Notes under the pieces: generated by a model
What the model saw: the letters and a program-made list of their open reading frames with translations, nothing else
What the model was told of the DNA's origin: nothing
The model's database searches: none
Program-made: the position numbers and the translations under genes
Assembly: GCA_964451515.1 (NCBI GenBank)
Contig: CAYVIJ010000001.1
Location: 212,975-276,974 of the forward strand
DNA: 64,000 nucleotides
Source: an uncultured Phycisphaeraceae bacterium
Lineage (GTDB): Bacteria > Planctomycetota > Phycisphaerae > Phycisphaerales > UBA1924
Direction of reading: 5' to 3'
Shown here: positions 1,201 to 56,469 of the stretch, piece by piece
Position numbering within the stretch: the stretch's first letter is position 1
How the letters are laid out: the number at the start of each line of letters is the position of its first letter

Positions 1201-1285
1201 GCTCCTTTGGGAAAGCCTGCCCTCTCAGCGGCCACGCCCCCGGAATGCCTGAAGGCCAACGACCGACAAATGATCAACCAAAAGC

Positions 1286-13857: not shown

Positions 13858-16479
13858 ATGCGACGGAACGCTGGCAACCGAATCAGGGTTTTGACAAGTC
13901 GCCTCGCCCGGCCCCTGGCCGTTCTGGCGGCCTGCGTTTTCGTGACTCCTCGCGTCGCCTCGGCGCCACCGGACGCGATGCTCGAGTATCGGGATATCCC
14001 CGAGCCGACACGCGTGGTCGTCGAGATGGAGTCGGATCTGCTCGCGTACGACCTGTGCTGGTCCGACGATGTCGAGTCGGCGCGCGCGGCGCTGGCGCAG
14101 CGAATCATCAAAGAGGCGCCGGCCGCGGGGCTCTTCGTCGTCGAGCTGCCGGAGCTTCCGGAGCGGTGGAGGCCGATCAGTCCACGCTCCATGCGGACCA
14201 TGGATGGCGCCCTCATGGATCGGCGGCGCATCGCCCGCGGGATGCGCACCTACGAGGAAGATCTCGAGGAGGCCCTGGTCGATGTGCTCGGTCGCGTTCA
14301 AGAAGCGCTGCCCGAGGCGATGATCGCAATCGAGGGTTTCGCGCCGCGCCGGAGCCGGACGGGTCCGCTCTATGAGTCGCTCGTGGACTCCTTCGATTAC
14401 ATCTTCGTCGATGAGAACTTCGAGAAGCTCTTCCGCCGGTACGAGCGTCGGCGCGACATGGCTTGGAAGATCGAGCGCGAGTTCGACTGGCTCGAGAGCT
14501 TCGGCTGGGGTGGCGCCAGGCCGCTCGTTCTTCGATACGCCGACAAGTGGGTCTTCGCGGCCTACGAAGAGCTCCCGAGCGATGAGGCGATCACCGCCCG
14601 CAGCGAGGACGAGCTGCTTGACGAGGCGCCGGAGGACTTCGAGGAGCACACCGATCAGTTGGCGACGAACGACCTCCCCAAGCCCGCCGGAATCGAGCCG
14701 CCGGATTTGGAGCCCATCCCGACCGACCATATCGCGGGCCGCGGGGGCGGCTCTCTGGCGCCGGCGCCGACAGGGGCTGAGCCGGCGGCGGCCGCGCCGG
14801 AGAACCCGTACGACCTGAACTCCGACGGCGCCGTCAATCAGGCGGACACGAGCATCGTCCTCGGCTCTTGGGGAACGAACAACCCGCTTGTGGACTTCGA
14901 CGGCAGCGGCGAGGTGGACGCGCATGATCTTGCGCTCATTCTGGGCTCCTACACCACGCCCGCAGAGCCCGAGCCGGACAAGGACCCGCCCGCCGAGACA
15001 GGAACAACGCTTATCGCAGGCGACGGCTTCAGCGGGAGCACGCCGCAGCCCGGTCCTGTCGGCTCGCTGACGCAGGCGGGCTTCGACGCCAAGGCGATCG
15101 CGCGCTGGGATGTCGTGCCCTACCAGACGGTCGACGAGGCGTTCGGCGTCGGCGTGGCGGCGTTTCACATGAACGGGATTGATCGCGTCGAGTTCTCGCT
15201 CGAGGGCGGTCCCTGGATGGCGGTCGAGGACGCCACGCTCAATCCGCGCACGGGCGTCGAGGAATACTGGATCAACTTCGATCCCGCGGAAGTCGAGGAC
15301 GGGCTGGTCGAGATCCGCGCGGTCGTCTATCCGACCACAGGAGAGCCGCGCGTGCTGGCCGGGCCGATCGAAGAGGAATCCCTCATCACGGGCGAACACT
15401 CGATGTTTGTCAACGGCAACGCGGGCGGCTCGCTGCCGGTCGAAATCGTGACGCTTGGGCCATCGGACGATCTCGCGGCGGCGATCGCGAGCACGCCCGA
15501 GGGCGGGGAGATCCACCTGGGGCCGGGCGACTATGACATCGCGGACATGCGGCGGGCGAGGAAGATGAGCCGCTGGCTCACGATTCGCCCGGCGCCGGGC
15601 GTGGCGCGGGAGCAGGTGCGCATTCGTCCTCCCTTCGAGGAGGGCCGCCGCTACATGGTGATCAAGGGCCAGCTCATCCGCTGGAAGGATCTGACCTTCG
15701 ATCTAGCGCGCATTCAGCGCATCGTTCCCCACCCTCCGACGAGCAAGCATCCGGGCGACTCGCACTGGTTCGATGGGTGCTACTGGACCGACACCAACGG
15801 CTGGGATCACACTTATCCCAGGAACATTCCGACGCCTTTCAACGGAAGCGGCGTCTGGTATTCGACGGATTCGGAGTATTTCGACACTCGCTTCGGCCCG
15901 ATGCGCCACCAGCTCGTCCGCGGCGCCGACATCAGGCGGATCAGCGGCGAGGTCTTCGAAGGCTCGCGGGTCGTGATCGACACCGACATCGAGAACGTCG
16001 ACGGCTCAATCCTTGAAAACGCTGTGCACACCGACATCGTTCAGTGGCATGACTCTCGCCGTCGGCGTATTGAGAACCAGATTCTCTACGGCGTCCGCGG
16101 CCAGAGTCTCTTCTCGCAGCACTTCTTCCTGCGGACCGGCGGCGGCGCGACGTACGAGGACATCGCCTTCGTCGACATCATGTTCAAGACGAAGGACGAG
16201 ATCCGCCCCAGCACAGGCCGCCCGCTCCGTGACCATACGCGCAGTCAGCTCTACTGCTTCAACGATCACGTGATCTTCCGCAACGTGCGATCCGACATTC
16301 CGCTGAACCTGCGCACAGCGGACACAGTTGGAAACCCGGACGAGGGCTACGTCGCCAGGAATGTGGTTTTCGAGAACTGCGGGTTCCCCGCCAAGACCCG
16401 GCAGCAACTGGTCGTGGAGGCGCCCGAGGGGATTCTCGCTCACAACGTGTTCGAGTGGACCTGGTGGGAGAATGAGTGA
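13858..16479 (+). CDS. Large secreted protein with dockerin-type Ca-binding repeats and a C-terminal putative beta-helix/carbohydrate-active domain
   Basis: The start was trimmed to ATG 13858, which has a GGGAGAAGG RBS. The signal peptide is MRRNAGNRIRVLTSRLARPLAVLAACVFVTPRVASA. There are two dockerin-like repeats (DLNSDGAVNQADTSIVLGSWG; DFDGSGEVDAHDLALILGSY). Confidence 0.6.
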   Translation: MRRNAGNRIRVLTSRLARPLAVLAACVFVTPRVASAPPDAMLEYRDIPEPTRVVVEMESDLLAYDLCWSDDVESARAALAQRIIKEAPAAGLFVVELPELPERWRPISPRSMRTMDGALMDRRRIARGMRTYEEDLEEALVDVLGRVQEALPEAMIAIEGFAPRRSRTGPLYESLVDSFDYIFVDENFEKLFRRYERRRDMAWKIEREFDWLESFGWGGARPLVLRYADKWVFAAYEELPSDEAITARSEDELLDEAPEDFEEHTDQLATNDLPKPAGIEPPDLEPIPTDHIAGRGGGSLAPAPTGAEPAAAAPENPYDLNSDGAVNQADTSIVLGSWGTNNPLVDFDGSGEVDAHDLALILGSYTTPAEPEPDKDPPAETGTTLIAGDGFSGSTPQPGPVGSLTQAGFDAKAIARWDVVPYQTVDEAFGVGVAAFHMNGIDRVEFSLEGGPWMAVEDATLNPRTGVEEYWINFDPAEVEDGLVEIRAVVYPTTGEPRVLAGPIEEESLITGEHSMFVNGNAGGSLPVEIVTLGPSDDLAAAIASTPEGGEIHLGPGDYDIADMRRARKMSRWLTIRPAPGVAREQVRIRPPFEEGRRYMVIKGQLIRWKDLTFDLARIQRIVPHPPTSKHPGDSHWFDGCYWTDTNGWDHTYPRNIPTPFNGSGVWYSTDSEYFDTRFGPMRHQLVRGADIRRISGEVFEGSRVVIDTDIENVDGSILENAVHTDIVQWHDSRRRRIENQILYGVRGQSLFSQHFFLRTGGGATYEDIAFVDIMFKTKDEIRPSTGRPLRDHTRSQLYCFNDHVIFRNVRSDIPLNLRTADTVGNPDEGYVARNVVFENCGFPAKTRQQLVVEAPEGILAHNVFEWTWWENE

Positions 16480-18119
16480 CGGCCGGACGCGCTGAATCCG
16501 AGAGCGCCGCTTCCTCATCGGCCGACGGGCCGGAGGACGGCCCTCCAAGCGAGCAGAGCGGAGCCCCCGCAACGGCGCCCAATGGCGCCGTTGCTTCTTC
16601 GCGCGCCCGGGATCCCGAGCGCGAGCTCGCCACCGACGATCTGCTCGATGACCTTTCCGGACGATCCGTCCGCGGCGGCGCGGTGACGATCGTCACCCAG
16701 GCGTTGAAGTTCGTCCTGATGCTGGGCTCGACGGCGATCCTGGCCCGCATTCTCACGCCCGCCGACTTCGGCCTCTTCGCCATGGTGGTCGCGATCACCG
16801 GCTTTGTCGCGAAGTTCAAGGACGCGGGCCTCTCGACGGCCACCATTCAGCGCGAATCCGTCACGCACGCGCAGGTCTCGACGCTCTTCTGGATCAACGT
16901 CGGGCTCAGCCTCGCCATTCTCGCCGTGCTCTCGGCGCTGGCGCCGGTCGTCGCCTGGCTCTACGGGGAGCCGCAATTGACGATGGTGACCATCGCGCTC
17001 GCGGGCACGATCGTACTGGGCGGGCTGACGGTGCAGCACCAGGCCATCCTCCGACGGCGCATGCGATTCACAACGCTCGCCTTCATCGAGATCGCGTCGA
17101 TCGTCTCCGGCGTTGGGGCGGCGATCGCGCTCGCCCTGCTTGGCGCGCGCTACTGGGCGCTCGTCGCCCAGACCGCCGCCATCGCGCTGGTCAACTGCGT
17201 CCTTGTATGGGTCTTCTCGCCCTGGCGTCCGGGCCTGCCACGGCGCGATTCGCAGGTGGGCGGCATGGTCCGCTTTGGCGGCGGCATGTCCGTTTTTCAC
17301 CTCATGGACTACGCCGTCCGCAACCTCGACAACGTCCTCATCGGCTGGTGGCTCGGAGCGACTCCGCTGGGCGTCTACTCCAAGGCCTATGGCCTGCTCA
17401 TGATGCCGATTCGCAACTTTAACGCGCCGATCGGCGGCGTGCTGACGCCGGCGCTCAGCCGCCTTCAGAACGATCCGGAACGCTTCCGCGGCTTTTTCAT
17501 TCGTGTGGTCGCCGGCATCTCCTTCGTCACCGTTCCCGTCGTCGCCTTCCTGTTCGCCGACGCGCGCAACGCGATCCTCACCGTACTCGGCGATCAATGG
17601 CTGGACGCCGTGCCCGTCTTTCGATACCTCGCGCCCGCCGCCTTCTTCAGCGCGGTGAACGTCGCGCCGACATGGCTGTGCCTGGCGCTCGGCAACTCCG
17701 GTCGCGCGATGCGGTGGGCGCTGGTGAGTGCGCCGCTGACGCTGCTCGCCGTCGCGATCGCCCTCCCGTGGGGCATCGAAATGGTCGCCCTTGCGTTCAG
17801 CCTGAGCTGGACGCCCGCGTTTCTTGCCTTCGTCGTCTACGCCGCCCATCGCACGCCCGTCCGCACGACCGACATCGCCCTCGCCATGGCGCCCGTCGCC
17901 GGCGCGGCGATCGTAGCCGCGGGCGGAGCGTGGCTCATCTCGCAGTGGAGCTCCGACGCGCTCCCCCCGCCGCTCGCCTTGCTTGTCAACGGCGCCGCGT
18001 TCGCTCCGCTCTATCTGGGCTTGTTCGTCCTTCTTGGCGGTCTGCGCGTGTTGCCGCTCAGGCGTGTCGCTGGACATCTTCTGAAAAGGCGAGGCGAGGC
18101 GGGAGCGCTTCTCGGCTGA
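16476..18119 (+). CDS. wzx: Polysaccharide biosynthesis flippase (Wzx-like, PST/MOP family)
   Basis: The body has about 12 TM segments and PST-family topology. The N-terminus has a 60-aa acidic extension. It is the first gene of the EPS operon. Confidence 0.75.
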   Translation: MTAGRAESESAASSSADGPEDGPPSEQSGAPATAPNGAVASSRARDPERELATDDLLDDLSGRSVRGGAVTIVTQALKFVLMLGSTAILARILTPADFGLFAMVVAITGFVAKFKDAGLSTATIQRESVTHAQVSTLFWINVGLSLAILAVLSALAPVVAWLYGEPQLTMVTIALAGTIVLGGLTVQHQAILRRRMRFTTLAFIEIASIVSGVGAAIALALLGARYWALVAQTAAIALVNCVLVWVFSPWRPGLPRRDSQVGGMVRFGGGMSVFHLMDYAVRNLDNVLIGWWLGATPLGVYSKAYGLLMMPIRNFNAPIGGVLTPALSRLQNDPERFRGFFIRVVAGISFVTVPVVAFLFADARNAILTVLGDQWLDAVPVFRYLAPAAFFSAVNVAPTWLCLALGNSGRAMRWALVSAPLTLLAVAIALPWGIEMVALAFSLSWTPAFLAFVVYAAHRTPVRTTDIALAMAPVAGAAIVAAGGAWLISQWSSDALPPPLALLVNGAAFAPLYLGLFVLLGGLRVLPLRRVAGHLLKRRGEAGALLG

Positions 18120-18575: not shown

Positions 18576-19241
18576 ATGAGCACGACTCAGGACCGCTCGA
18601 TGGTTCCGGGCAAAGCCCACTATTCAGCAGAATACATCGACGGCGGACGCATGTTCAGCTTCGCCCACCAGATCGCGACCGTGGCGTCCTTTCAGCCACG
18701 CTCCGTTCTCGAGATTGGGGTCGGGCCGGGGCTCGTGTCCGGGACGCTGCGCACAGTGGGGTTCGAAGTGGTGACAATGGACGTCGAGCCAGAGCTGGAG
18801 CCCGACGTGGTGGGATCGGTCACTGACCTGCCCTTCGAGGATGAGTCACAGGATGTGGCGTTGTGCAGCCAGGTGCTCGAGCATCTGCCGTGGTCGGAGT
18901 GTCCTGTCGCGCTCTCGGAGCTCCATCGGGTGTGTCGGCTCGGGTTGGTGCTCAGTCTTCCCGACATCACGGCGCTGTACGAGATTCGCGTCCGCGCGCC
19001 GATCGTCGGACGGATCGAGAAACAGTTCTCGCGCTCCCTTCGCACGACTGAGGCCTGGCGGCGCGAGCGATGGGAGCAAATGGGCCACTACTGGGAGATC
19101 GGCTATGAAGGGAGTCGACTCGTCGATGTGCGGCGGACGATCGAGAACGTCGGGTTCCGTGTGGATCGAATCTGGCGCGTGAGTGAGTTGCCCTTTCACC
19201 GCTTCTTTCGGCTCGAAAAACGATCCGAGAAAGCGAGCTGA
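18576..19241 (+). CDS. Class I SAM-dependent methyltransferase
   Basis: The start was trimmed to ATG 18576. The GxGxG motif is LEIGVGPGL, followed by an acidic residue and LPFEDESQDVALCSQVLEHL (Methyltransf_11-like). Confidence 0.7.
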   Translation: MSTTQDRSMVPGKAHYSAEYIDGGRMFSFAHQIATVASFQPRSVLEIGVGPGLVSGTLRTVGFEVVTMDVEPELEPDVVGSVTDLPFEDESQDVALCSQVLEHLPWSECPVALSELHRVCRLGLVLSLPDITALYEIRVRAPIVGRIEKQFSRSLRTTEAWRRERWEQMGHYWEIGYEGSRLVDVRRTIENVGFRVDRIWRVSELPFHRFFRLEKRSEKAS

Positions 19242-20203
19242 TGCGTCTGCCGGACTTCTTCATCGCGGGCGAGATGAAATGCGGCTCCACGACGCTCTGG
19301 GACATGCTCGCCTCCGATGGGCGCATCTTCTCGTCCCATGACAAGGAGCTGCACTTCTTCGCGAGCTACACCTATTTCGGCGGCTCGGGCCCCGACGCTC
19401 TGGGTGATCTGGACGCCTACGCCGCGCACTTCGCCGGAGCGAAGCCGGATCAGCTCTGCGGCGAAGCGACGCCGAATTACCTGTTCGATCTCAAAGCGCC
19501 GGAGCGCATCCGTCGTGTCGTCCCCGAGGCGCGCTTGATCATCATTCTGCGCGATCCCGTCGATCGCGCCTGGTCCCACTACTGGCACCAGGTCCGGCGC
19601 GGCTGGGACAAGCTCTCCTTCGAGAAGGCGCTGGAGGCGGAGCCCGGGCGGATCGAGACGGGCGATCTCCAGCAGCGCGACGCCTTCTCTTACCTGGCGC
19701 GGGGGCGGTATATCGAGAGCCTCGAGCGGCTGGAAGCGCAGTTCCCGCGCGAGCGGATTCTCATCCTGACCCTTGAGGAGCTGAAGACCGATCCGCTCCG
19801 CGAATTGGACCGCGTCTCGGTCCACCTCGGGCTGAGCCCGCCCATCGAGGCCCCGGGTCCGCCGCCACACCGCAACAAGGCGGACTTTCCCCGCTTCCCC
19901 GCCCTGGACCGCCTGATCCAGCGAGCCAAGCCGGCCGCTGCCGCCGCGGGGCCGCTGATCGAGGGTCTTGCCGCCGCCGCGGCCAAGGCGACGCGCCCCG
20001 TTCGCCGAAGAAGTGGCAGCGGATTGATGAAGCCCGCGACGCGCGACGCGCTGCGCGACGTCTTCGCCCGCTCCGACGCCGATCTCGCCGATCGGCTCGG
20101 CAGGCCCGTTCCCTGGCGTCGGATGGACGCCAAAGATCCGGAGAGGAGCACGACCGATGATCTCGATCGTTCTGGTGACCTGCAATCGAAGGCATCTGCT
20201 TGA
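19241..20203 (+). CDS. PAPS-dependent sulfotransferase
   Basis: The 5'-PSB motif is FFIAGEMKCGSTTL. The 3'-PB motif is IILRDPVDRAWSHY. Confidence 0.8.
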   Translation: MRLPDFFIAGEMKCGSTTLWDMLASDGRIFSSHDKELHFFASYTYFGGSGPDALGDLDAYAAHFAGAKPDQLCGEATPNYLFDLKAPERIRRVVPEARLIIILRDPVDRAWSHYWHQVRRGWDKLSFEKALEAEPGRIETGDLQQRDAFSYLARGRYIESLERLEAQFPRERILILTLEELKTDPLRELDRVSVHLGLSPPIEAPGPPPHRNKADFPRFPALDRLIQRAKPAAAAAGPLIEGLAAAAAKATRPVRRRSGSGLMKPATRDALRDVFARSDADLADRLGRPVPWRRMDAKDPERSTTDDLDRSGDLQSKASA

Positions 20204-20954
20204 GGCGTGCCTGAAGAACGTGCTCGGACGGCTCTCGGAGGAGACCGGCCAGATCGTCATCTGGAACAACGCCTCCGTCGACGGCACGCGCGAGCTCCTC
20301 GACGCCTTCGACGATCCCCGCGCACAAGTCATTCACAGCGAGGAGAACCTGGGCACGAACGCCTTCGCCCGCGCCTTCAAGCTCGCGCGGGGCGAGCACC
20401 TGATCGAACTCGATGACGACATCATCGACGCCCCGGAGAACTGGGACCGAATCATGCGCGAGGCGTTCGACGCTCTCCCGGGCTTCGGTTTCCTCGCCGC
20501 CGCCTGCGTTGACGACGGCAAGAGCGTCGCGTCTGAGATCATGTATCGCCGCGATGCGCACAAGTACACGCCGCAGACCATCAATGGCGTCAACATTCTC
20601 GACGGACCCACAGGCGGCTGGTGCTCCATCACTTCTCGCGAGGCGTACGAGAAGGCGGGCGGCTTCGTCGAAAACGAGAAATTCATCTTCTGGCAGGAGG
20701 ATGGCGCCTTTGTGAAGGCGCTCGCCGACGCGGGATACCGCTCCGCTGTTCTCGCCGATCTCAAGGTCTTCCATGCCTCCGGCCCCGCGTACTCTTCCCA
20801 CGAGTCCTTCGAGCAGGCGAAGGCCCGCTACTACCGGTGGCGCGACGCCAATCGCAACCGCCGAAAAGCCGTGAAATCCGCGCTGGAGCGCATCCCGGGC
20901 GTGCGGCGCCTGAACCAGAAGCATGGCTGGTGGGTCTCTGCCGCGGAAGCGTGA
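20157..20954 (+). CDS. Glycosyltransferase family 2
   Basis: The N-terminus is ISIVLVTCNRRHLLEACL. LDDD and a DxD region are present. It overlaps the upstream stop. Confidence 0.8.
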   Translation: MISIVLVTCNRRHLLEACLKNVLGRLSEETGQIVIWNNASVDGTRELLDAFDDPRAQVIHSEENLGTNAFARAFKLARGEHLIELDDDIIDAPENWDRIMREAFDALPGFGFLAAACVDDGKSVASEIMYRRDAHKYTPQTINGVNILDGPTGGWCSITSREAYEKAGGFVENEKFIFWQEDGAFVKALADAGYRSAVLADLKVFHASGPAYSSHESFEQAKARYYRWRDANRNRRKAVKSALERIPGVRRLNQKHGWWVSAAEA

Positions 20955-22320
20955 GCCCTTCATCGCGGGGTGGACCGACGTGACTCGACGCGCGCTCATC
21001 ATCGCCTTCTTCTTCCCGCCCGACGGCGGAGGCGGCAGCCAGCGCTGGGCGAAGTTCTGCAAGCGGCTGCCGGCTCTCGGGTGGCAGCCCACGGTGCTCA
21101 CGCGTGCGCAGCCCGCTTCCCGAACCCAGTGGGACCCGGAGGACGAGACCCTCCTCGAGGATGTCGCCGCCGCCCGGATCCACCGCCTGGAGCCCGCGCC
21201 GGCGGCGGCGGAAGTCAATCTAAAGCTCAGCGGCGATGTCGATCCCGCGTGGCTCCGCCAAACGCTGGCGGAGGCCGGGCGTCTGTGCGCCGAAGAGACG
21301 TTCGATGTCATCGTACTCACGGCCCCCCCGTACGATCTTGCGCGTCTGGCGCCGGTTCTTGCGGAGCAGATCAGGATTCCAGTCGTGCTCGATCTCCGGG
21401 ATCCGTGGGCCTTTGATGGCGGCCGCCTCTTCTCGAGCGCCGCCGCCTGGCGGCGCGAGCGCGACGTCATGATCCGCGCTCTGGAGCGATGCGAGGGCGT
21501 CATCTTCAACACACCCGAAGCCCGCGCCGCCATCGAACGCGGGATCGGCGCGCGGGCTCGACGAGCGGTCGTCATCCCCAATGGCTACGACGTCGACGAC
21601 TTCACCGGGCTCGAGCCCGCGCCCCGAAGCGACGACGCATTTCGGATCGCGCATCTGGGAACGCTGCACTCCCGAGCGCTGTATGAGCGCCGCGGACCGG
21701 CGGGATTCGTGCGCAGGATTCGCCGCCACCGTCCCCAGCGAGTCGCCCCGGCCGGACGCACGCTTCGCCCGCTGCTGAAGGCGATCCACGCGCTGCGGCG
21801 CGAGGGCGACCCACTCGGAGAGCGGGTTCGTGTACGGGTCCTCGGGCCGGTCGACGAGGCGACGGAGCGGTGCGTCCGCGATTCGCCCACGCCTGATGCG
21901 GTCGAGCTGATCGGTTATCTGCCCCACGCTGAGGCCCTTCGTGAAGCCGCCTCGGCCGACGCGCTCTTCCTGCCGCTCTACGGACTGCCCGCGGGCGAGC
22001 GCGCGCGGATCGTTCCCGGGAAGACCTATGAGTACCTGGCGCTAGGTCGGCCGATCCTCGCCTGCGTTCCGCCCGGCGACGCTCGGGAGCTGGTCGAGCG
22101 CACAGGGCGTGCGGCCTGCGCCGATCCCTGCGATCCACACGGGATCGCCCAGGCGATCCGAAGACTCCAGACGATGGAGGCGCCGCCGCCGGGGTGGCCT
22201 CCGGAGTGGATAAGCCGCTTCGAGCGGGGGGCGTTGACGCGCGAGCTGTCGGAGTTTCTCACGATGGTCGCCTCGGGTTCGCAAGCGCGTGAACGCAGCG
22301 AGAGGCTGGGGGCGGCATGA
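20923..22320 (+). CDS. GT-B glycosyltransferase (GT4-like); the start may instead be GTG 20980
   Basis: The C-terminal Glycos_transf_1 motif is FLPLYGLPAGERARIVPGKTYEYLALGRPILAC. Confidence 0.7.
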   Translation: MAGGSLPRKREPFIAGWTDVTRRALIIAFFFPPDGGGGSQRWAKFCKRLPALGWQPTVLTRAQPASRTQWDPEDETLLEDVAAARIHRLEPAPAAAEVNLKLSGDVDPAWLRQTLAEAGRLCAEETFDVIVLTAPPYDLARLAPVLAEQIRIPVVLDLRDPWAFDGGRLFSSAAAWRRERDVMIRALERCEGVIFNTPEARAAIERGIGARARRAVVIPNGYDVDDFTGLEPAPRSDDAFRIAHLGTLHSRALYERRGPAGFVRRIRRHRPQRVAPAGRTLRPLLKAIHALRREGDPLGERVRVRVLGPVDEATERCVRDSPTPDAVELIGYLPHAEALREAASADALFLPLYGLPAGERARIVPGKTYEYLALGRPILACVPPGDARELVERTGRAACADPCDPHGIAQAIRRLQTMEAPPPGWPPEWISRFERGALTRELSEFLTMVASGSQARERSERLGAA

Positions 22321-23663
22321 CCCAGGATCAAACGCTGCTTCATCCGCTGGGTCTCGTCTTCTTCGCGATCCTCGCCATCGCGACGCTGCTCGCTCCGCGG
22401 CGCTACGCGCTGCTCCCGATGCTGCTGATGGCGTGCTTTATCTCTCCCGCGCAGAAGCTCGCAATCGGCGGGCTCGACTTCAACATGCTCCGGCTTCTGG
22501 TGATCGTGGGCTGGACCCGCCTGCTGATGCGCCATGAGTTGCGCCCCATTCGCTGGACGGCGATCGACTTGCTTGTGATCAGCGTGCCCGTCGTCAGCGC
22601 GGTCGCCTACATCTCGCTCTGGCAGTCGAGCCAGGCGGCGATCTTCCAGTCAGGACAGCTCTTCGATGCGGTGGGCATGTATTTTCTCTTCCGCCATCTC
22701 CTCGCCTCTCTGGCGGATGTGCGCGCGCTGGCGACCTCGTTCGTCATCGTCAGCGTTCCATTTGCGGCGGTCGTCTCCGTGGAGCTGTTCACCGGACGGA
22801 ACATGTTCAGCGTCTTCGGCGGCGTCCCGGAGATGACGCTCGTTCGCGGCGGGCGGCGGCGCTGCCAGGGCGCGTTCCCGCATGCGATCATGATGGGCTC
22901 GTTCTGGGCGATCGCCCTGCCGCTAATGGCGAGCCTCTGGTGGTGGGACAAGCGGAAACTGGCCATGGTCGGGGTTCTGGCGGGGCTCTTCTGCGTCTTC
23001 GCGAGCGCCTCGAGCACGCCCGCGATGGGCGTGATCTTCGCCGCGTTCGCCGCCGGATTCTTCCCGTTTCGCCATCGCCTTCGGGCGATCCGCTGGGGGT
23101 TCGCCGCGTCGCTGATCCTTCTGCATTTCGTGATGAAAGGGCCGGTGTGGTCGCTGCTCGCCAAGGCGAACCTCTTCAGCGGCTCGACCGGATGGCATCG
23201 CTTCCATCTTCTCGACAAGGGGATCCGCAACGTTTCCGAATGGGCGCTCAACGGCACGCAGTCCACCGCCCACTGGGGCTACGGTCTCAGCGACGTCACG
23301 AATCAATATCTCGCCGTCGGCGTCGAGGGCGGGATCGTCGCCCTCGCTCTGTTCATCGCGCTGCTCGCCTTCTGCTACCGCGCCGCAGGGATGGCGATGA
23401 AGGCGTGGGAGCCGTCGCGTCCCGCGCTCATCACCGCATACTGCCTGGGCGTGATTCTCTTCACGCACACGATGATGTTCTTCGCCGTGTCCTATTTCGG
23501 ACAGATGATTATGCTCTGGACGCTCACCGTGGCTCTCTCCGCCACATTCCAGAATCTCGCGACCCAGAGCGTGGCCGCGCGCGCGCCCCGTCGCCGCCGC
23601 GCGGCGGCAGTGCGCGCGAGGCGAGCCGCCGGATCGCGGGCTCTGCCGGGGGCGACGGCGTGA
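22317..23663 (+). CDS. wzy: O-antigen ligase/Wzy-like polysaccharide polymerase
   Basis: The body has about 11 TM helices. A periplasmic loop carries HWGYGLSDVTNQYLAVGVEGGIVALALF, which is Wzy_C-like. Confidence 0.7.
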   Translation: MTQDQTLLHPLGLVFFAILAIATLLAPRRYALLPMLLMACFISPAQKLAIGGLDFNMLRLLVIVGWTRLLMRHELRPIRWTAIDLLVISVPVVSAVAYISLWQSSQAAIFQSGQLFDAVGMYFLFRHLLASLADVRALATSFVIVSVPFAAVVSVELFTGRNMFSVFGGVPEMTLVRGGRRRCQGAFPHAIMMGSFWAIALPLMASLWWWDKRKLAMVGVLAGLFCVFASASSTPAMGVIFAAFAAGFFPFRHRLRAIRWGFAASLILLHFVMKGPVWSLLAKANLFSGSTGWHRFHLLDKGIRNVSEWALNGTQSTAHWGYGLSDVTNQYLAVGVEGGIVALALFIALLAFCYRAAGMAMKAWEPSRPALITAYCLGVILFTHTMMFFAVSYFGQMIMLWTLTVALSATFQNLATQSVAARAPRRRRAAAVRARRAAGSRALPGATA

Positions 23664-23671: not shown

Positions 23672-24526
23672 ATGCGCGTTCGCGTCAAGCAGTGGCGGCG
23701 CGAGGGGCGGCTCCCGTGGCTTGTCGGCGCCTCCGAAAGCCTCTACCGCTTCGGACGCGATCTCCGCGACATCCCAACCAGAGCTTCGCTGCTCAAGCGC
23801 CTGCGGGAATCGCTCCCCGAACGCGCGCCGGAGCGCATCGTCGATCTGGCGTTGAATGGGTTCGACGGGCGCTTCCGCCCCATTCAGATCCGCAGCGAAC
23901 TGCTCGCGCTGGCGCAGCGCATCGAGCGGCTTCGTCCGCGCCGAGCGCTTGAAATCGGAACCGCGCGGGGCGGCTCGCTCTTCGTCCTGTGTCGGCTCGC
24001 CGCGGAGGACGCGCACGTCGTCAGCGTCGATCTGCCGGGCGGCTGGTTCGGAGGCGGCTATCACGCTTGGCGCGCGCCGCTCTACCGCGCCTTTGCGCGT
24101 CCCGGGCAGCGGCTTGACCTCCTGCGGGTGGACTCGCACGCGCCCGAGACGCTCGAGCGTATCCACTCCCTCTTCCTGGGGGCGCCCCTCGATTACCTCC
24201 TCATCGACGGCGACCACACCTACGAGGGCGTGAAGCGCGACTTCGATCTCTACGCGCCGCTCGTCCGCCCAGGCGGCCTCGTCGTGCTGCACGACATCGT
24301 TCCCCAGCCCCATGAGCCATCGTGCCGGGTTCCGGATTTCTGGCGCGAGCTGCGCGAGCGCCCTGGGGCGGAGGAGATCGTGGAGAGCTGGGAGCAAGTG
24401 GGCTGCGGGCTGGGGCTGCTCACGCCTGCGTCGCCCGCCGGGAGGCGCCGCCAGGGCGCAGGCGACGGCGTGCCGCCCGTCCCAGGTCGTACACCAAATC
24501 CCGACCGGCGCGAACCGGGGTCTTGA
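23672..24526 (+). CDS. Class I SAM-dependent O-methyltransferase (Methyltransf_24/TylF-CmcI-like)
   Basis: The start was trimmed to ATG 23672, just after the wzy stop. Motifs are EIGTARGGSLF and LIDGDHTYEGVKRDFDLYAPLVRPGGLVVLHD. Confidence 0.7.
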   Translation: MRVRVKQWRREGRLPWLVGASESLYRFGRDLRDIPTRASLLKRLRESLPERAPERIVDLALNGFDGRFRPIQIRSELLALAQRIERLRPRRALEIGTARGGSLFVLCRLAAEDAHVVSVDLPGGWFGGGYHAWRAPLYRAFARPGQRLDLLRVDSHAPETLERIHSLFLGAPLDYLLIDGDHTYEGVKRDFDLYAPLVRPGGLVVLHDIVPQPHEPSCRVPDFWRELRERPGAEEIVESWEQVGCGLGLLTPASPAGRRRQGAGDGVPPVPGRTPNPDRREPGS

Positions 24527-25319
24527 GGAGCACGTCGTATAGGAAGGGCGCCGCGGATTCGCGCTCCGGAACGACCGACGGATCGATCTCGAAGTGCTCC
24601 AGCGCCGCCCCGGCGCGGAGCCGTCTTCCGCGCACTCGGTTCAGGACATTGGCGCCGTGGATCACCTGCAACCAGCCCGGCGGATCGCCCAGCCCGATCA
24701 CGGGGGCGAACTGTCTGATCTCCATGTGCTGCACCGCCCATGCCGTTTGGATCTCCTCCACTCGATCCGGAGTCGGCTCCACCATCGACACGAAAGCATT
24801 GCTCCGATGCGTCGCGCGATACAGCCGCCCCTGCCGCCACGTGCAGCCGATGTTGAAGTTGACGAAGGCGAGCGTTTCGTTCTTCAGGGCCTGTTGCGCG
24901 CGCTCGACGTATGTGCGCGCCAGCGCGTCGTCATTGTCCAGTCGCGTCGTGATCAGCCGCCTCGACCCGTCGACGAACCGCCAGAGCGGCGGTTTCCACA
25001 CAGCGGGATCAAAACGATCGATGAAGATCGGGTGAACTCGATCGTGCTCCGACAGGGCTTCTGCGCGCGCTCGGTACGGATCGGGAGTGTCGCTGTCGAA
25101 GAAGATCGCCCAGTCGAAGTCGCGAACACTCTGACTCAGGATCGAGGGCAGGCAGAACTGCTCGAAGAGTCCGAAACGGTGCTCCAGCCACTCCGTGTCC
25201 TGCGCCGCCGTCGCCCACGCCGCGTCGACTCGGACGTTGAACCGCGTCAAAATGATGTGACTCGTCTCGCCCATCCGCGGCCTCACTATCGGCGCTCGAT
25301 CCGGCGTTCGTTCAGTCAT
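24420..25319 (-). CDS. Putative glycosyltransferase (rhamnosyltransferase-like, LTRFN motif family), antisense to the operon
   Basis: The N-terminus is SHIILTRFNVRV. The composition is diverse. The family assignment is tentative. Confidence 0.4.
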   Translation of the reverse strand: MTERTPDRAPIVRPRMGETSHIILTRFNVRVDAAWATAAQDTEWLEHRFGLFEQFCLPSILSQSVRDFDWAIFFDSDTPDPYRARAEALSEHDRVHPIFIDRFDPAVWKPPLWRFVDGSRRLITTRLDNDDALARTYVERAQQALKNETLAFVNFNIGCTWRQGRLYRATHRSNAFVSMVEPTPDRVEEIQTAWAVQHMEIRQFAPVIGLGDPPGWLQVIHGANVLNRVRGRRLRAGAALEHFEIDPSVVPERESAAPFLYDVLLKTPVRAGRDLVYDLGRAARRRLRPGGASRRATQA

Positions 25320-25363: not shown

Positions 25364-26365
25364 GTGAATGTCTCGATCCTCATTATCTCGTTCAACACGC
25401 GGGAGTTGACAACCGCCTGCGTGCGCTCGGTGCTGGAGCATACGAGCGGCGTGGACTTTGAGATCATCGTCGTCGATAACGCCTCCACAGACGGCTCCGC
25501 GGACGCGATCGAGCAGATCGCCCGAGCCGAGGAGCGCCTCGCCGTCATCCGCCTGTCCGAGAACATCGGGTTCGCTCCCGCCAACAACGTCGCCGCCCGC
25601 GCCGCCCGGGGCGATCGCCTGCTGCTTCTCAATCCTGACACGCTGCTTCAATCGGACGCCGTCTCGGCGCTCGTCCGTTTCGCGGACGAGCGCCCCGAAA
25701 ACGGGATCTGGGGCGGCCGCACCCTTTTTGAGGATGGGAGTCTCAATCCAACGTCCTGCTGGGCGCGATCGACGCCCTGGTCCATGTTCAGTCGCGGCGT
25801 GGGTCTGGCCGCGCTCTTCCGCGGCGTCTCCTTTTTCAATCCCGAGCCGATGCCCGGCTGGCGTCGCAACACCGTTCGGGAAGTCGACATCGTGACCGGC
25901 TGCTTCCTTCTCATCGATCGATCGCTCTGGGACCGTCTCGGCGGCTTCGATGAGCGATTCTTCCTCTTCGGCGAAGAAGTGGATCTCTGCGTGCGCGCCC
26001 GCGCGCTGGGAGCGCGTCCGCTCTTCACGCCAAGCGCCGAGATCATCCACTATGGCGGCCGATCCAGCGCCGGATCGGTGGAACAGACGATCCGTCAGTT
26101 CCGCGCCAAGAACCAGCTCTTCCGCAAGCGCTGGCGCCCGGCGGCGGCGTGGTTCGCGGGCGCGATGATCGACGCCTGGGCCTTTCGCCGCATGGCGCTG
26201 GGGCGGTTGATCAAGGCGCTGGGCTTGTCCGACCCCCGCGCGGACGATTGGATCGAGCTCTGGCGGAGTCGTCGCGAGTGGCGGGCGGCTCTTCCGCCGC
26301 CGGAGAGGACGCCGTCGCGGACGGTCGAGTCTCGGACGATGGAGGCGACTCATGTCGAAGCCTGA
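25364..26365 (+). CDS. Glycosyltransferase family 2
   Basis: The N-terminus is VSILIISFNTRELTTACVRSVLEH. VVDNASTDGS and a DxD region are present. Confidence 0.8.
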   Translation: MNVSILIISFNTRELTTACVRSVLEHTSGVDFEIIVVDNASTDGSADAIEQIARAEERLAVIRLSENIGFAPANNVAARAARGDRLLLLNPDTLLQSDAVSALVRFADERPENGIWGGRTLFEDGSLNPTSCWARSTPWSMFSRGVGLAALFRGVSFFNPEPMPGWRRNTVREVDIVTGCFLLIDRSLWDRLGGFDERFFLFGEEVDLCVRARALGARPLFTPSAEIIHYGGRSSAGSVEQTIRQFRAKNQLFRKRWRPAAAWFAGAMIDAWAFRRMALGRLIKALGLSDPRADDWIELWRSRREWRAALPPPERTPSRTVESRTMEATHVEA

Positions 26366-32318: not shown

Positions 32319-32320
32319 CG

Positions 32321-40942: not shown

Positions 40943-40996
40943 ATGCGATGCGCGCTCGCGGCGCTCGCGCCTGAACCGCAGACCGGAGGTCCGATC

Positions 40997-56438: not shown

Positions 56439-56469
56439 TTTCTGGTGGGACGGCTCTCCGAGCCGTCTC

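What the first reader, a model, noticed from the sequence alone, without database searches (positions are those of the whole stretch)
19241..20203. A PAPS-type sulfotransferase flanked by two SAM methyltransferases inside the EPS operon
Both PAPS-binding signatures are readable (K-C-G-S-T-T-L P-loop and the R-D-P-x-x-R-x-x-S 3'-PB motif). Class-I methyltransferases lie on either side (18576-19241 and 23672-24526). The combination predicts a sulfated and O-methylated exopolysaccharide. Sulfated glycans are a hallmark of planctomycetes, but their biosynthetic genes are mostly uncharacterised. This gene is a concrete candidate polysaccharide sulfotransferase.
Basis: partly seen in the sequence, partly recalled or inferred. 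Interest (0 to 1): 0.6.

Follow-up and report, generated by a model that had tools for sequence, protein, structure and literature searches.

The report
Candidate exopolysaccharide sulfotransferase in a Phycisphaerae genome
The gene is a genuine carbohydrate-type sulfotransferase in the exopolysaccharide gene cluster of an uncultured planctomycete, so a sulfated slime is likely, but this is a routine domain annotation with published parallels and the neighbouring methyltransferases are not its functional partners.

Summary
ORF 19241-20203 (+, 320 aa) scores above the Pfam gathering scores for Sulfotransfer_3 and Sulfotransfer_1. It carries both PAPS-binding motifs and a conserved Glu/His at the catalytic-base position. 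A confident AlphaFold model matches only sulfotransferases; the closest are bacterial 3RNL and the heparan-sulfate 3-O- and N-sulfotransferases. It is 30% identical (E 2e-25) to XssA, a sulfotransferase of the cyanobacterial synechan cluster.

It sits in a 28-kb Wzx/Wzy-type, exosortase-associated EPS locus of a Phycisphaerae MAG. Its recurring neighbours in relatives are the Wzx flippase and a GT2 directly downstream.

The "flanked by two methyltransferases" reading is positional only. MT11 belongs to a family coupled to Wzx, found in clusters with or without a sulfotransferase. MT24 lies 3.5 kb away, paired with a putative rhamnosyltransferase, and has no orthologue in any related locus.

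No PAPS-supply genes are in the window. The papers retrieved describe planctomycetes as degraders of sulfated glycans, not producers.

Verdict: a sound but ordinary candidate, a new member of a known kind. A PVC bacterium (Pontiella) has a published flippase-methyltransferase-sulfotransferase cluster in the same order.

The parts
19241..20203 (+). Sulfotransferase (ST), 320 aa, with no signal peptide or membrane anchor
   Evidence: Pfam Sulfotransfer_3 51 bits and Sulfotransfer_1 44.2 bits. PDB 3RNL E 6.7e-28, HS 3-OST and NDST E 1e-10 to 1e-13. AF2 model pLDDT 89.3, with only sulfotransferase fold matches. XssA 30% identity, E 2e-25.
19277..19297 (+). 5'-phosphosulfate-binding loop K13-C-G-S-T-T-L19
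   Evidence: Read directly from the sequence. K13 aligns with the PSB-loop Lys of 3-OST-1. K13 is invariant in A2, and G15 is invariant and T17 nearly invariant in A1.
19343..19360 (+). K35-E36-L-H38-F-F40, where the Glu/His align with the 'NEVHFF' catalytic-base segment of HS 3-OST-1
   Evidence: Alignment. K35 is invariant and E36/H38 at least 90% conserved in 30 homologues. E36 is invariant across XssA, S. meliloti and Anabaena homologues.
19550..19576 (+). 3'-phosphate-binding motif R104-D-P-V-D-R109-A-W-S112
   Evidence: R104, P106, R109 and S112 are invariant in A1 and A2.
20157..20954 (+). GT2a glycosyltransferase (265 aa), the sulfotransferase's most specific conserved partner; its start overlaps the ST by 47 nt
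   Evidence: Pfam Glycos_transf_2 64.6 bits. Orthologues at 46-65% identity lie directly downstream of the ST orthologue in L002, L004/L090, L006, L009/L089, L087 and L091.
16476..18119 (+). Wzx/MOP flippase (TuaB-like)
   Evidence: Polysacc_synt_3 295 bits; MOP flippase and TuaB models. It lies in the same locus as 13 of 14 close ST orthologues, adjacent in most.
18576..19241 (+). MT11, a class I SAM methyltransferase of a Wzx-coupled family; its acceptor is unknown
   Evidence: Methyltransf_11 46.3 bits. Orthologues at 43-51% identity directly follow Wzx in L091 and L093-L096.
13858..16479 (+). Large conserved protein of unknown function at the head of the cluster
   Evidence: No Pfam or NCBIfam family, only a sub-threshold dockerin hit. 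Homologues at 29-56% identity hold the same position in L004, L006, L010, L087, L090, L091, L094 and L095.
20923..22320 (+). GT4 glycosyltransferase
   Evidence: Glyco_transf_4 50.4 bits and Glyco_trans_1_4 37.3 bits.
22317..23663 (+). Wzy-like polytopic membrane protein (putative polymerase)
   Evidence: No Pfam hit here. The orthologue in L089 has a weak Wzy_C hit, and homologues lie in L003, L005, L008, L086-L088 and L091-L095.
23672..24526 (+). MT24, a CmcI/rhamnosyl-O-methyltransferase-type methyltransferase with an IDGDH metal-binding motif
   Evidence: Methyltransf_24 66.7 bits and RMNT_CmcI 39.4 bits. Best PDB match 6G7D, E 5e-8. No orthologue in any fetched locus.
24420..25319 (-). 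Putative rhamnosyltransferase, convergent with MT24 and overlapping it by 107 nt
   Evidence: Rhamno_transf 106.4 bits. The Logan gene caller gives 24420-25274.
25364..26365 (+). GT2b glycosyltransferase
   Evidence: Glycos_transf_2 85.3 bits.
26352..27388 (+). Alg14-like and Alg13-like split glycosyltransferase pair
   Evidence: Alg14 32.8 bits and Glyco_tran_28_C 47.9 bits.
27385..28725 (+). Nucleotide-sugar dehydrogenase, closest to UDP-ManNAc and UDP-GlcNAc C6 dehydrogenases
   Evidence: TIGR03026 400.6 bits (cut-off 189.8); UDP-ManNAc DH and TviB models are the next best.
28743..29981 (+). GT1-type glycosyltransferase
   Evidence: Glyco_trans_1_4 47.7 bits.
31500..33010 (+). Exosortase EpsH (within ORF 30870-32318) followed by an EpsI/DUF3485 protein (32216-33010)
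   Evidence: Exosortase_EpsH 177.5 bits. TIGR02602 scores 126.9, above its cut-off of 105.55, but the XrtA model scores 123, below its 208 cut-off. DUF3485 46.7 bits.
33045..35300 (+). Chain-length determinant / tyrosine autokinase (PCP)
   Evidence: AAA_31; eps_fam and pepcterm_TyrKin models, both below cut-off.
35304..36758 (+). Priming polyprenyl-phosphate sugar-phosphate transferase
   Evidence: Bac_transf 193.8 bits; EPS_sugtrans 232 bits, below its 295.55 cut-off.
36755..40942 (+). 1395-aa TPR protein resembling PrsT
   Evidence: TPR families; PEP_TPR_lipo 167 bits, below its cut-off of 312.
40943..41776 (+). RmlA-like sugar-1-phosphate nucleotidylyltransferase
   Evidence: NTP_transferase 200 bits; rmlA 236.6 bits, below its cut-off of 360.65.

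Best explanation
The gene encodes a soluble, cytoplasmic, PAPS-dependent carbohydrate sulfotransferase of the XssA/3RNL type, the bacterial relatives of heparan-sulfate 3-O- and N-sulfotransferases. It works inside a Wzx/Wzy-dependent, exosortase-associated exopolysaccharide pathway of an uncultured Phycisphaerae bacterium.

Proposed sequence of events: the priming transferase (35304-36758) starts a repeat unit on undecaprenyl phosphate. The cluster's glycosyltransferases extend it. The GT2 directly downstream of the sulfotransferase adds the residue, or creates the acceptor, that the sulfotransferase sulfates at the cytoplasmic face. Lys13 and the RDPxxRxxS motif hold PAPS, and Glu36 acts as catalytic base. 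Wzx then flips the decorated unit, the Wzy-like protein polymerises it, and the PCP tyrosine kinase sets chain length.

ST+GT2a behaves as a two-gene tailoring cassette dropped into a conserved scaffold. The closest ST-free scaffold (L095) has an acyltransferase at that position. More distant scaffolds (L094, L096) have no sulfotransferase and carry a pyruvyl transferase just upstream of Wzx. MT11 belongs to the scaffold (Wzx-coupled). MT24 plus the rhamnosyltransferase form a second such cassette.

Shown: family and fold membership, conserved cofactor and catalytic residues, gene order and its conservation. Inferred: PAPS use, the acceptor, the lipid-linked stage, O- versus N-sulfation, and that the product is a secreted EPS.
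For: The sulfotransferase HMMs score above their gathering scores. PDB sequence matches are 3RNL at E 6.7e-28, and HS 3-OST-1/3/5 and NDST at E 1e-10 to 1e-13, with aligned K13, E36/H38 and R104...S112. The AF2 model has pLDDT 89.3 and pTM 0.86, and its first strand starts at residue 6, leaving no room for a signal peptide or anchor. In Foldseek the glycan-acting sulfotransferases match at E 1e-16 to 1e-10 with target-normalised TM 0.7-0.83 (full-length NDST1 chains lower), whereas TPST and cytosolic SULTs reach only E 1e-6 to 1e-4 with TM about 0.35-0.45. The motif residues are invariant or nearly so across 30 homologues and across XssA, S. meliloti and Anabaena homologues. XssA is 30% identical over 197 aa, E 2e-25. 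In the synechan paper, deleting xssA suppressed bloom formation and EPS accumulation, the polymer carries about two sulfates per repeat, and the repeat unit is modified at the cytoplasmic face before flipping (PMC8205485). On synteny, Wzx lies near 13 of 14 distinct close orthologues, and a GT2a orthologue (46-65% identity) lies directly downstream in 6 of 14. L095 shares 10 scaffold genes (36-69% identity) but lacks ST+GT2a and MT24+RhamT. No promoter-like or terminator-like site lies between Wzx and GT2a, and neighbouring genes overlap. The complete Wzx/Wzy/PCP/priming/exosortase set is present.
Against: There is no biochemical or chemical evidence. No ATP-sulfurylase, APS-kinase or CysQ gene is in the 64 kb, whereas the Vibrio KMM 8419 authors regard co-located cysNDC as a hallmark of sulfated-polysaccharide clusters (PMC11641403). 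No outer-membrane export (Wza/OPX) gene was found in the window. The acceptor cannot be read from sequence. The residue aligned with Lys123 of 3-OST-1 is Ala76; the role of Lys123 is from my memory. The ST-GT2a pairing holds in under half of the close orthologues. NCBIfam has no model for this protein, so no curated equivalog backs the assignment.
Confidence: 0.7

Rival explanations
1. It is an N-sulfotransferase rather than an O-sulfotransferase. It would sulfate a free amino group of a de-N-acetylated hexosamine in a glycosaminoglycan-like polymer, as the NDST sulfotransferase domain does.
For: The NDST N-sulfotransferase domain matches almost as well as the 3-O-sulfotransferases (E 6e-11; Foldseek E 5e-12). 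The cluster's dehydrogenase is closest to UDP-ManNAc and UDP-GlcNAc dehydrogenases, which suggests amino-sugar uronic acids. In Pontiella the sulfated exopolymers were 75-80% N-sulfated (PMC7356697). The related locus L091 carries a polysaccharide deacetylase.
Against: No deacetylase gene was found in this window's cluster. The best-matching characterised enzymes are O-sulfotransferases. XssA acts on a polymer of neutral hexoses and rhamnose (PMC8205485).
Confidence: 0.12
2. The sulfotransferase decorates a different glycoconjugate made through the same flippase, such as an O-antigen/LPS-like glycolipid or an O-linked protein glycan (for example on exosortase substrates), rather than a secreted EPS.
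For: The Wzx also resembles O-glycosylation and teichuronic-acid flippases. The Wzy-like protein has no Pfam hit here, and its orthologue has only a weak Wzy_C hit, a domain shared (from my memory) with O-antigen ligases and O-oligosaccharyltransferases. An exosortase system is embedded in the locus. Rhizobial LpsS-type sulfation of LPS is a precedent, cited from my memory.
Against: A PCP tyrosine autokinase and a PrsT-like TPR protein are typical of high-molecular-weight EPS/CPS loci. No PEP-CTERM-tailed ORF is in the window. Homologous clusters with genetic data (xss) make EPS (PMC8205485).
Confidence: 0.12
3. The sulfotransferase acts on a soluble precursor, such as a nucleotide sugar or small metabolite, or on a non-glycan acceptor, and lies in the cluster for unrelated reasons.
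For: The acceptor cannot be read from sequence. The broad family has 33,351 cluster representatives at E<=1e-3 in very diverse contexts. Some distant fold relatives act on polyketide intermediates (4GBM) or tyrosine (TPST).
Against: It is consistently placed in polysaccharide clusters beside Wzx and GT genes in 14 of 14 close orthologues, across several phyla. The fold is much closer to glycan sulfotransferases than to TPST, SULT or polyketide sulfotransferases.
Confidence: 0.04
4. The protein is a catalytically dead or vestigial sulfotransferase homologue.
For: No PAPS-supply genes are nearby. The C-terminal tail (residues 304-320) is disordered and overlaps the next gene.
Against: Every cofactor-binding and catalytic position is intact and conserved. 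The model is confident over residues 1-300. The ORF is full length with coding-type GC3.
Confidence: 0.02

Closest known systems
XssA of the synechan (xss) cluster, Synechocystis sp. PCC 6803 plasmid pSYSM (PMC8205485)
   Same: They are homologous over the catalytic domain and to the C-terminal Trp: 30% identity over 197 aa, E 2e-25, with the same invariant K, E, R...R..S residues. Both lie in a Wzx/Wzy-type EPS cluster with GT2, GT4, PCP, a priming transferase and an exosortase-associated gene.
   Different: The phyla differ. XssA has KEPNFF instead of KELHFF, so the His is not conserved. The xss cluster has a second sulfotransferase of another subfamily (XssE; E only 7e-4 against this protein) and its own XssQ/R/S regulators. 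In the xss cluster the sulfotransferase is not next to the flippase.
PDB 3RNL, sulfotransferase from Alicyclobacillus acidocaldarius (crystal structure; no function given in the PDB entry name)
   Same: It is the best sequence match (E 6.7e-28, aligned over residues 3-294) and the best fold match (Foldseek E 8e-16, target-normalised TM 0.83), including the C-terminal helical region.
   Different: About 25% identity. No known substrate or pathway, so it adds nothing about function.
Animal heparan-sulfate 3-O-sulfotransferases (3-OST-1/3/5) and the NDST N-sulfotransferase domain
   Same: The same fold and PAPS-binding motifs. The catalytic-base Glu and the neighbouring His align (E36/H38). Sequence matches are E 1e-10 to 1e-13 and Foldseek matches E 1e-13 to 1e-10.
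   Different: About 21-23% identity. The animal enzymes are Golgi-lumenal membrane-anchored proteins acting on a finished polymer, whereas this protein has no anchor or signal and is presumably cytoplasmic. Ala76 replaces the Lys of the 'EKTPAY' segment. An extra C-terminal helical region (residues 220-298) is shared with 3RNL.
Putative sulfated-glycosaminoglycan cluster of Pontiella sulfatireligans F21 (Kiritimatiellae, PVC superphylum; PMC7356697, Fig. 5)
   Same: The local gene order is the same: tuaB-type flippase, methyltransferase, sulfotransferase, surrounded by GT2 and GT4 genes. It is a PF13469 sulfotransferase in a PVC-superphylum bacterium. In that case sulfated exopolymer was measured chemically.
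   Different: The Pontiella sequences could not be fetched here, so orthology is untested. No exosortase is reported in that cluster. The Pontiella genes themselves are also uncharacterised.
Sinorhizobium meliloti pSymB polysaccharide cluster with three sulfotransferases
   Same: 35% identity over 227 aa, E 1e-14. The sulfotransferase is followed by GT4, an O-antigen-ligase-family (Wzy-like) gene and a chain-length determinant.
   Different: It has multiple sulfotransferases, a Wza-type export protein and a pectate lyase. Its product is not known to me.
Sulfated capsule cluster of Vibrio sp. KMM 8419 (PMC11641403)
   Same: Sulfotransferases embedded in a polysaccharide cluster with rhamnose genes. 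The polymer structure there is solved and shows sulfated L-rhamnose.
   Different: It uses ABC-transporter-dependent export and has cysNDC PAPS-synthesis genes inside the cluster, which are absent here.

Membership tests
PAPS-dependent sulfotransferase superfamily (Pfam Sulfotransfer_1 / Sulfotransfer_3) | Profile score above the curated gathering score | tested here: met
   Sulfotransfer_3 51 bits against 27; Sulfotransfer_1 44.2 bits against 22.
PAPS-dependent sulfotransferase superfamily (Pfam Sulfotransfer_1 / Sulfotransfer_3) | 5'-phosphosulfate-binding loop (K-x-G-[ST]-T) after the first strand | tested here: met
   K13-C-G-S-T-T. It aligns with the PSB loop of 3-OST-1 and 3RNL and is conserved in the family.
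PAPS-dependent sulfotransferase superfamily (Pfam Sulfotransfer_1 / Sulfotransfer_3) | 3'-phosphate-binding motif (R-x-x-x-x-R-x-x-S) | tested here: met
   R104-D-P-V-D-R109-A-W-S112, with R104, P106, R109 and S112 invariant.
PAPS-dependent sulfotransferase superfamily (Pfam Sulfotransfer_1 / Sulfotransfer_3) | Sulfotransferase alpha/beta fold | tested here: met
   AF2 model pLDDT 89.3, pTM 0.86. All 50 listed Foldseek PDB matches are sulfotransferases.
PAPS-dependent sulfotransferase superfamily (Pfam Sulfotransfer_1 / Sulfotransfer_3) | PAPS-dependent sulfuryl transfer activity | not testable with these tools
   This needs the purified protein and a PAPS/PAP assay.
Heparan-sulfate 3-OST / NDST-type glycan sulfotransferases | Catalytic-base Glu in the segment after strand 2 (E90 in 3-OST-1, numbering from my memory) | tested here: met
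   E36 aligns with the Glu of NEVHFF and H38 with the His. Both are at least 90% conserved in 30 homologues.
Heparan-sulfate 3-OST / NDST-type glycan sulfotransferases | Golgi type II membrane anchor with a lumenal catalytic domain acting on a finished glycosaminoglycan chain | tested here: not met
   The first strand starts at residue 6 and there is no N-terminal hydrophobic segment. It is therefore a structural and mechanistic relative, not a member.
Heparan-sulfate 3-OST / NDST-type glycan sulfotransferases | Substrate-binding Lys of the 'EKTPAY' segment (K123 of 3-OST-1, from my memory) | tested here: not met
   The aligned residue is Ala76 (GEATPNY). 3RNL has GEASVFY.
XssA-type bacterial EPS sulfotransferases (synechan) | Sequence homology to XssA over the catalytic domain | tested here: met
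   30% identity over 197 aa, E 2e-25, with shared invariant residues to the C-terminal Trp.
XssA-type bacterial EPS sulfotransferases (synechan) | Location in a Wzx/Wzy-type extracellular polysaccharide cluster | tested here: met
   Wzx, Wzy-like, PCP, a priming transferase and 7 GT genes lie in one locus. The same holds for the close orthologues.
XssA-type bacterial EPS sulfotransferases (synechan) | The product polysaccharide carries ester sulfate that depends on the gene | not testable with these tools
   This needs chemistry on the EPS of the organism or of a heterologous host.
Sulfated-polysaccharide gene cluster as defined by the Vibrio KMM 8419 authors (PMC11641403) | PAPS-synthesis genes (cysN/D/C) co-located with the sulfotransferase genes | tested here: not met
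   No ATP-sulfurylase, APS-kinase or CysQ domain was found in any scanned ORF of the 64 kb. The xss cluster region read here also shows none, so this is not a universal requirement.
XrtA/PEP-CTERM EPS system | Exosortase, EpsI, PrsT, tyrosine kinase and EpsB-type transferase each reaching the XrtA-system model cut-offs | tested here: not met
   The generic exosortase model TIGR02602 passes (126.9 against 105.55). XrtA (123 against 208), EpsI_fam (28.7 against 42.8), PrsT (167 against 312), pepcterm_TyrKin (84 against 231) and TIGR03013 (145 against 393) do not. The locus is exosortase-associated but is not a canonical XrtA locus.
CmcI / rhamnosyl O-methyltransferase family (for MT24) | Profile score above the gathering score, plus the metal-binding D-x-D-H motif | tested here: met
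   RMNT_CmcI 39.4 bits against 23.2; Methyltransf_24 66.7 bits against 26.3. LLIDGDH aligns with FLFIDGGH of 6G7D. The acceptor sugar is untested.

The most novel reading that the evidence does not exclude
ST+GT2a is a mobile 'add a sugar and sulfate it' cassette. It plugs into a conserved exosortase-linked EPS scaffold (large protein-Wzx-MT11...GT2b-Alg14/13-dehydrogenase-GT1-EpsH/EpsI-PCP-TPR) shared across Planctomycetota and other MAG lineages, where it substitutes for acyl or pyruvyl decorations. If so, some Phycisphaerae make a sulfated, methylated, probably uronic-acid-containing EPS. Planctomycetes would then be producers as well as consumers of sulfated glycans, and this would be the first genetically defined sulfation module for the phylum.
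Probability: 0.4. Interest if true: 0.5.

Novelty: new member of a known kind. Interest (0 to 1): 0.3.

Why it matters
Few bacterial polysaccharide sulfotransferases have any genetic or biochemical characterisation. The synechan authors even stated that sulfated EPS were exclusive to cyanobacteria. Planctomycetes are studied as degraders of sulfated algal glycans. A verified sulfation module in Phycisphaerae would add a bacterial source of sulfated polymers to carbon and sulfur cycling, and it would supply a soluble, anchor-free relative of heparan-sulfate sulfotransferases for enzymology or glycoengineering. As it stands the call is an ordinary domain annotation: NCBI already names homologues 'sulfotransferase'. 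Comparable clusters have been described in Synechocystis, Pontiella, Vibrio and Cobetia. The practical gains from this analysis are the ST-GT2a pairing and the existence of an otherwise similar ST-free scaffold (L095) for comparison.

Tried and rejected
- NCBIfam gave no family for the sulfotransferase, MT24 or the rhamnosyltransferase.
- The genome-contig scan did not contain the window's own genome, so the organism could not be named from it. Taxonomy came from PurC relatives instead.
- A first tblastn of MT11 against the 80 ST-centred genome loci found nothing and briefly suggested MT11 was unique. Pfam-annotated contexts and a search from the methyltransferase side corrected this.
- MT24 has no orthologue in any of the 95 loci.
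- MT11 has no informative solved relative.
- A literature search for PDB code 6G7D found nothing. Its identity as the M. hassiacum methylmannose-polysaccharide O-methyltransferase rests on my memory.
- The 456-nt Wzx-MT11 spacer has no promoter or terminator match, no Rfam family, no unusual RNA stability (z +0.81) and only chance-level repeats.
- No second ST-family ORF and no PEP-CTERM-tailed ORF is in the window.
- PAPS-supply genes were looked for in every sizeable ORF and not found.
- I considered and rejected a tyrosine-protein sulfotransferase role, because TPST fold matches are far weaker than the glycan sulfotransferases.
- I considered and rejected a functional MT11-ST-MT24 trio.
Full report
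**1. Observation**

The ORF at 19241-20203 (+) is real and encodes 320 aa. Its third-position GC is 0.81, like other coding frames in this 67% GC window. An independent gene caller predicts the same ORF on a Logan assembly of run SRR7048225. The identical protein is on record in NCBI on a 276,974-bp contig. K-C-G-S-T-T-L occupies residues 13-19 and R-D-P-V-D-R-A-W-S residues 104-112.

- 18576-19241: Methyltransf_11, 46.3 bits.
- 23672-24526: Methyltransf_24, 66.7 bits, and RMNT_CmcI, 39.4 bits.

The upstream methyltransferase's TGA stop and the sulfotransferase's ATG share base 19241. The downstream methyltransferase is 3.47 kb away, beyond GT2, GT4 and a Wzy-like gene.

**2. Is it a sulfotransferase?**

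Yes, by every test available.
- **Profiles.** Pfam Sulfotransfer_3 scores 51 bits (gathering score 27) and Sulfotransfer_1 scores 44.2 bits (gathering score 22).
- **Solved structures, by sequence.** The best match is 3RNL, a sulfotransferase from Alicyclobacillus acidocaldarius (E 6.7e-28, aligned over residues 3-294). Next come heparan-sulfate 3-O-sulfotransferases 1, 5 and 3A and the NDST N-sulfotransferase domain (E 1e-13 to 1e-10).
- **Key residues.** In those alignments Lys13 falls on the PSB-loop lysine. Glu36 and His38 (KELHFF) fall on the NEVHFF segment, which by my recollection of the 3-OST-1 literature holds the catalytic-base Glu90 and His92. R104...R109..S112 falls on the 3'-phosphate-binding motif.
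- **Conservation.** These positions are invariant or at least 90% conserved across 30 homologues. They are also conserved across XssA, a Sinorhizobium and an Anabaena homologue.
- **Fold.** An AlphaFold2 model built on that alignment is confident (pLDDT 89.3, pTM 0.86); only residues 304-320 are disordered. All 50 listed Foldseek matches to the PDB are sulfotransferases. The glycan-acting ones lead at E 1e-16 to 1e-10, with target-normalised TM of 0.7-0.83 for the single-domain chains. Tyrosylprotein and cytosolic sulfotransferases are far weaker, at E 1e-6 to 1e-4 and TM about 0.35-0.45.

Both were tested and not met.

**3. Where it sits**

Named relatives of PurC (12232-13170) are all Phycisphaeraceae, Phycisphaerales or Planctomycetota, at 60-68% identity. 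The window therefore comes from an uncultured member of class Phycisphaerae.

The sulfotransferase lies in a roughly 28-kb polysaccharide locus (13858-41776). In order, the locus holds:
- a large conserved protein of unknown function
- Wzx flippase (TuaB-like)
- MT11
- the sulfotransferase (ST)
- GT2a
- GT4
- a Wzy-like membrane protein
- MT24
- a convergent putative rhamnosyltransferase
- GT2b
- an Alg14/Alg13-like pair
- a nucleotide-sugar dehydrogenase closest to UDP-ManNAc and UDP-GlcNAc dehydrogenases
- GT1
- a hexapeptide-repeat protein
- exosortase EpsH and EpsI
- a PCP tyrosine kinase
- the priming sugar-phosphate transferase
- a 1395-aa PrsT-like TPR protein
- an RmlA-like nucleotidyltransferase

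The exosortase passes the generic model, but the XrtA-system models stay below their cut-offs. No PEP-CTERM-tailed ORF and no second sulfotransferase is in the window. No ATP sulfurylase, APS kinase or CysQ is present anywhere in the 64 kb.

**4. Relatives and their neighbourhoods**

The broad family is large: 33,351 50%-identity cluster representatives at E<=1e-3, but only 258 at E<=1e-30. The closest proteins are about 50% identical. Those that carry a taxon name come from Phycisphaerae, Planctomycetota, Verrucomicrobiota, Myxococcota and Hydrogenedentes MAGs.

In 14 distinct loci with a 41-54% identical orthologue:
- A Wzx flippase lies in the same locus in 13, adjacent in most.
- An orthologue of GT2a (46-65% identity) lies directly downstream in 6: L002, L004/L090, L006, L009/L089, L087 and L091.

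Some relatives carry two or three sulfotransferases of different subfamilies (L087, L089).

**5. The methyltransferases are not the sulfotransferase's partners**

MT11 has true orthologues (48-51% identity) one gene away from the sulfotransferase in L087 and L091. Searching from the methyltransferase side changes the picture.
- The MT11 family has 1,911 members at E<=1e-5.
- In all four sampled loci (L093-L096), and in L091, the methyltransferase directly follows Wzx, with a 4-nt overlap in four of the five.
- Only L093 of those four has a sulfotransferase, and that one belongs to another subfamily (E 6e-4 against this protein).
- L094 and L096 carry a polysaccharide pyruvyl transferase just upstream of Wzx.

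MT24 has no orthologue in any of the 95 fetched loci. Its nearest solved relative is 6G7D, with a shared IDGDH motif. From my memory, 6G7D is a mycobacterial sugar O-methyltransferase. MT24 sits tail-to-tail with the putative rhamnosyltransferase. The 'ST flanked by two MTs' arrangement is therefore a coincidence of modular cluster assembly, not a functional trio.

**6. Cassette model**

L095 has no sulfotransferase, yet it shares ten scaffold genes with the window in the same order:

| Gene | Identity to the window |
|---|---|
| Large protein | 36% |
| Wzx | 50% |
| MT11 | 51% |
| GT4 | 41% |
| Wzy-like | 45% |
| GT2b | 54% |
| Alg14 | 59% |
| Alg13 | 67% |
| Dehydrogenase | 69% |
| GT1 | 67% |

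Relative to L095, the window has ST+GT2a between MT11 and GT4, where L095 has a hexapeptide acyltransferase. It also has MT24+rhamnosyltransferase between the Wzy-like gene and GT2b.

The simplest reading is two 'glycosyltransferase plus tailoring enzyme' cassettes. GT2a would add, or create, the residue that the sulfotransferase sulfates. The rhamnosyltransferase would add a 6-deoxyhexose that MT24 O-methylates. This is inference from synteny only.

**7. Most likely mechanism**

The protein has no signal peptide or anchor; the first strand begins at residue 6. PAPS is a cytoplasmic metabolite (general knowledge). Sulfation should therefore occur at the cytoplasmic face on the undecaprenyl-diphosphate-linked repeat unit, before Wzx flipping, Wzy polymerisation and PCP-controlled export. 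The synechan paper describes this as the general scheme for Wzx/Wzy systems (PMC8205485).

O- versus N-sulfation cannot be decided from sequence. NDST matches nearly as well as 3-OST, and the Pontiella exopolymers were mostly N-sulfated (PMC7356697). However, the window has no deacetylase.

Overlapping or abutting genes, and the absence of promoter-like or terminator-like sites from Wzx to GT2a, fit co-transcription. The 456-nt Wzx-MT11 gap is unexplained.

**8. Comparison with what is known**

- **XssA (synechan cluster).** This is the closest genetically studied enzyme: 30% identity, E 2e-25. It sits in a cluster that also combines Wzx, Wzy, PCP, GTs, a priming transferase and an exosortase-associated gene. 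Deleting xssA suppressed bloom formation and EPS accumulation (PMC8205485).
- **Pontiella sulfatireligans F21.** A published cluster in this fellow PVC bacterium has the same flippase-methyltransferase-sulfotransferase order, and sulfated exopolymer was measured chemically (PMC7356697, Fig. 5).
- **Sinorhizobium meliloti pSymB.** It carries a cluster with an ST-GT4-Wzy-PCP order.
- **Vibrio sp. KMM 8419.** It makes a structurally solved sulfated-rhamnose capsule from a cluster with sulfotransferases plus cysNDC (PMC11641403).
- **Animal heparan-sulfate sulfotransferases.** These are structural and mechanistic relatives. Membership fails on the membrane anchor and on a substrate-binding lysine.

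**9.

The papers retrieved describe planctomycetes as rich in sulfatases and as degraders of sulfated algal polysaccharides (PMC4807772). In Shark Bay mats, some Planctomycetes MAGs carried a PF13469 sulfotransferase but most orders of the phylum lacked it (PMC9723792). Sulfated glycosaminoglycan-like polymers have been detected in anammox granules, but the producer is unresolved (cited in PMC7356697). No paper in the library links Phycisphaerae with sulfotransferases in any substantive way. 'Hallmark' is therefore not justified. The gene is better described as evidence that some planctomycetes may also produce such polymers.

**10. Verdict**

The core interpretation, a PAPS-type sulfotransferase and candidate polysaccharide sulfotransferase in an EPS locus, is supported. 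The methyltransferase trio and the 'hallmark' framing are not.

This is a new member of a known kind. The annotation is routine, since NCBI already labels homologues as sulfotransferases, and analogous clusters are published. What this analysis adds is the conserved ST-GT2a pairing, the Wzx-coupled MT11 family, and an ST-free sister scaffold for comparison. Interest is about 0.3.

Noticed in passing
window 18120-18575: A 456-nt non-coding gap separates Wzx from MT11, whereas the orthologous Wzx-MT11 pairs in L091, L093, L094 and L096 overlap by 4 nt. The in-frame upstream extension (from 18129) is Arg-rich and is not called as coding. There is no promoter or terminator match, no Rfam family and no unusual RNA stability.
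   Followed up: partly
window 18576-19241; L091:8391-9059, L093:8001-8648, L094:8001-8663, L095:8001-8663, L096:8001-8645: MT11 belongs to a sizeable family (1,911 hits) of roughly 215-aa class I methyltransferases. They directly follow the Wzx flippase in five related EPS loci (4-nt overlap in four), several with an exosortase, across several phyla including the cultured Thioflavicoccus mobilis 8321. Their acceptor is unknown, and some sources annotate them as 'UbiE'.
   Followed up: partly
window 13858-16479: An 873-aa protein with no Pfam or NCBIfam family (only a sub-threshold dockerin hit) heads the cluster. It has 29-56% identical counterparts in the same position in L004, L006, L010, L087, L090, L091, L094 and L095. 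It may be a cluster-specific glycanase or surface protein.
   Followed up: no
L094:5101-6411 and L096:5119-6417: Related Wzx-MT11 scaffolds without a sulfotransferase carry a polysaccharide pyruvyl transferase immediately upstream of Wzx. This suggests pyruvate ketals and sulfate esters are alternative anionic decorations of the same type of polymer.
   Followed up: no
window 24420-24526: MT24 (+) and the putative rhamnosyltransferase (-) converge and overlap by 107 nt. The C-terminal 40 residues of MT24 are low-complexity (Pro/Gly/Arg-rich) and are probably a read-through tail.
   Followed up: no
window 20157-20203: The sulfotransferase's disordered C-terminal tail (residues 304-320, pLDDT below 50) overlaps the start of GT2a by 47 nt. 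In the orthologous pairs of L090 and L091 the overlap is 4 nt.
   Followed up: partly
window 30870-32318: The exosortase domain starts only at residue 211 of this ORF, and the ORF's 5' part overlaps the hexapeptide-repeat ORF 30493-31440, so the true start is probably internal (about 31440-31500). The exosortase passes the generic model but none of the subtype models (XrtA 123 against a cut-off of 208), and no PEP-CTERM-tailed ORF is in the window. It may be an undescribed exosortase subtype.
   Followed up: partly
L089:16752-17702 and 19562-20488; L087:15419-16390; L093:5347-6426: Several related clusters carry additional sulfotransferases of other subfamilies (faint or weak Sulfotransfer_3 hits; the L093 one has E 6e-4 against the window protein). 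This mirrors the XssA/XssE pair in synechan and implies multiply sulfated repeat units.
   Followed up: no
protein P0243: A 4,529-aa predicted protein matches the sulfotransferase in 32 separate stretches (238 bits in all; best stretch against query residues 47-81). It could be a giant repeat protein or an assembly or prediction artefact.
   Followed up: no
window 42766-45278 (-), 47956-48909 (-), 55065-57459: More probable sugar-modifying genes lie outside the cluster proper: a class-III aminotransferase with an APH-type kinase, an NAD-dependent epimerase/dehydratase, a DegT/EryC1 aminotransferase and a type-I phosphomannose-isomerase-like gene.
   Followed up: no
window 48764-50353, 54104-54709, 59586-60947: Possible regulators lie near the locus: a Ser/Thr protein kinase, a STAS-domain protein and a GGDEF diguanylate cyclase. 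Any link to EPS control was not examined.
   Followed up: no
window 1285-1373 (-), 52612-52682 (-), about 61655-63985 (-): Two tRNA genes are present. Cell-division/cell-wall genes MurG and FtsW lie at the right end of the window.
   Followed up: no
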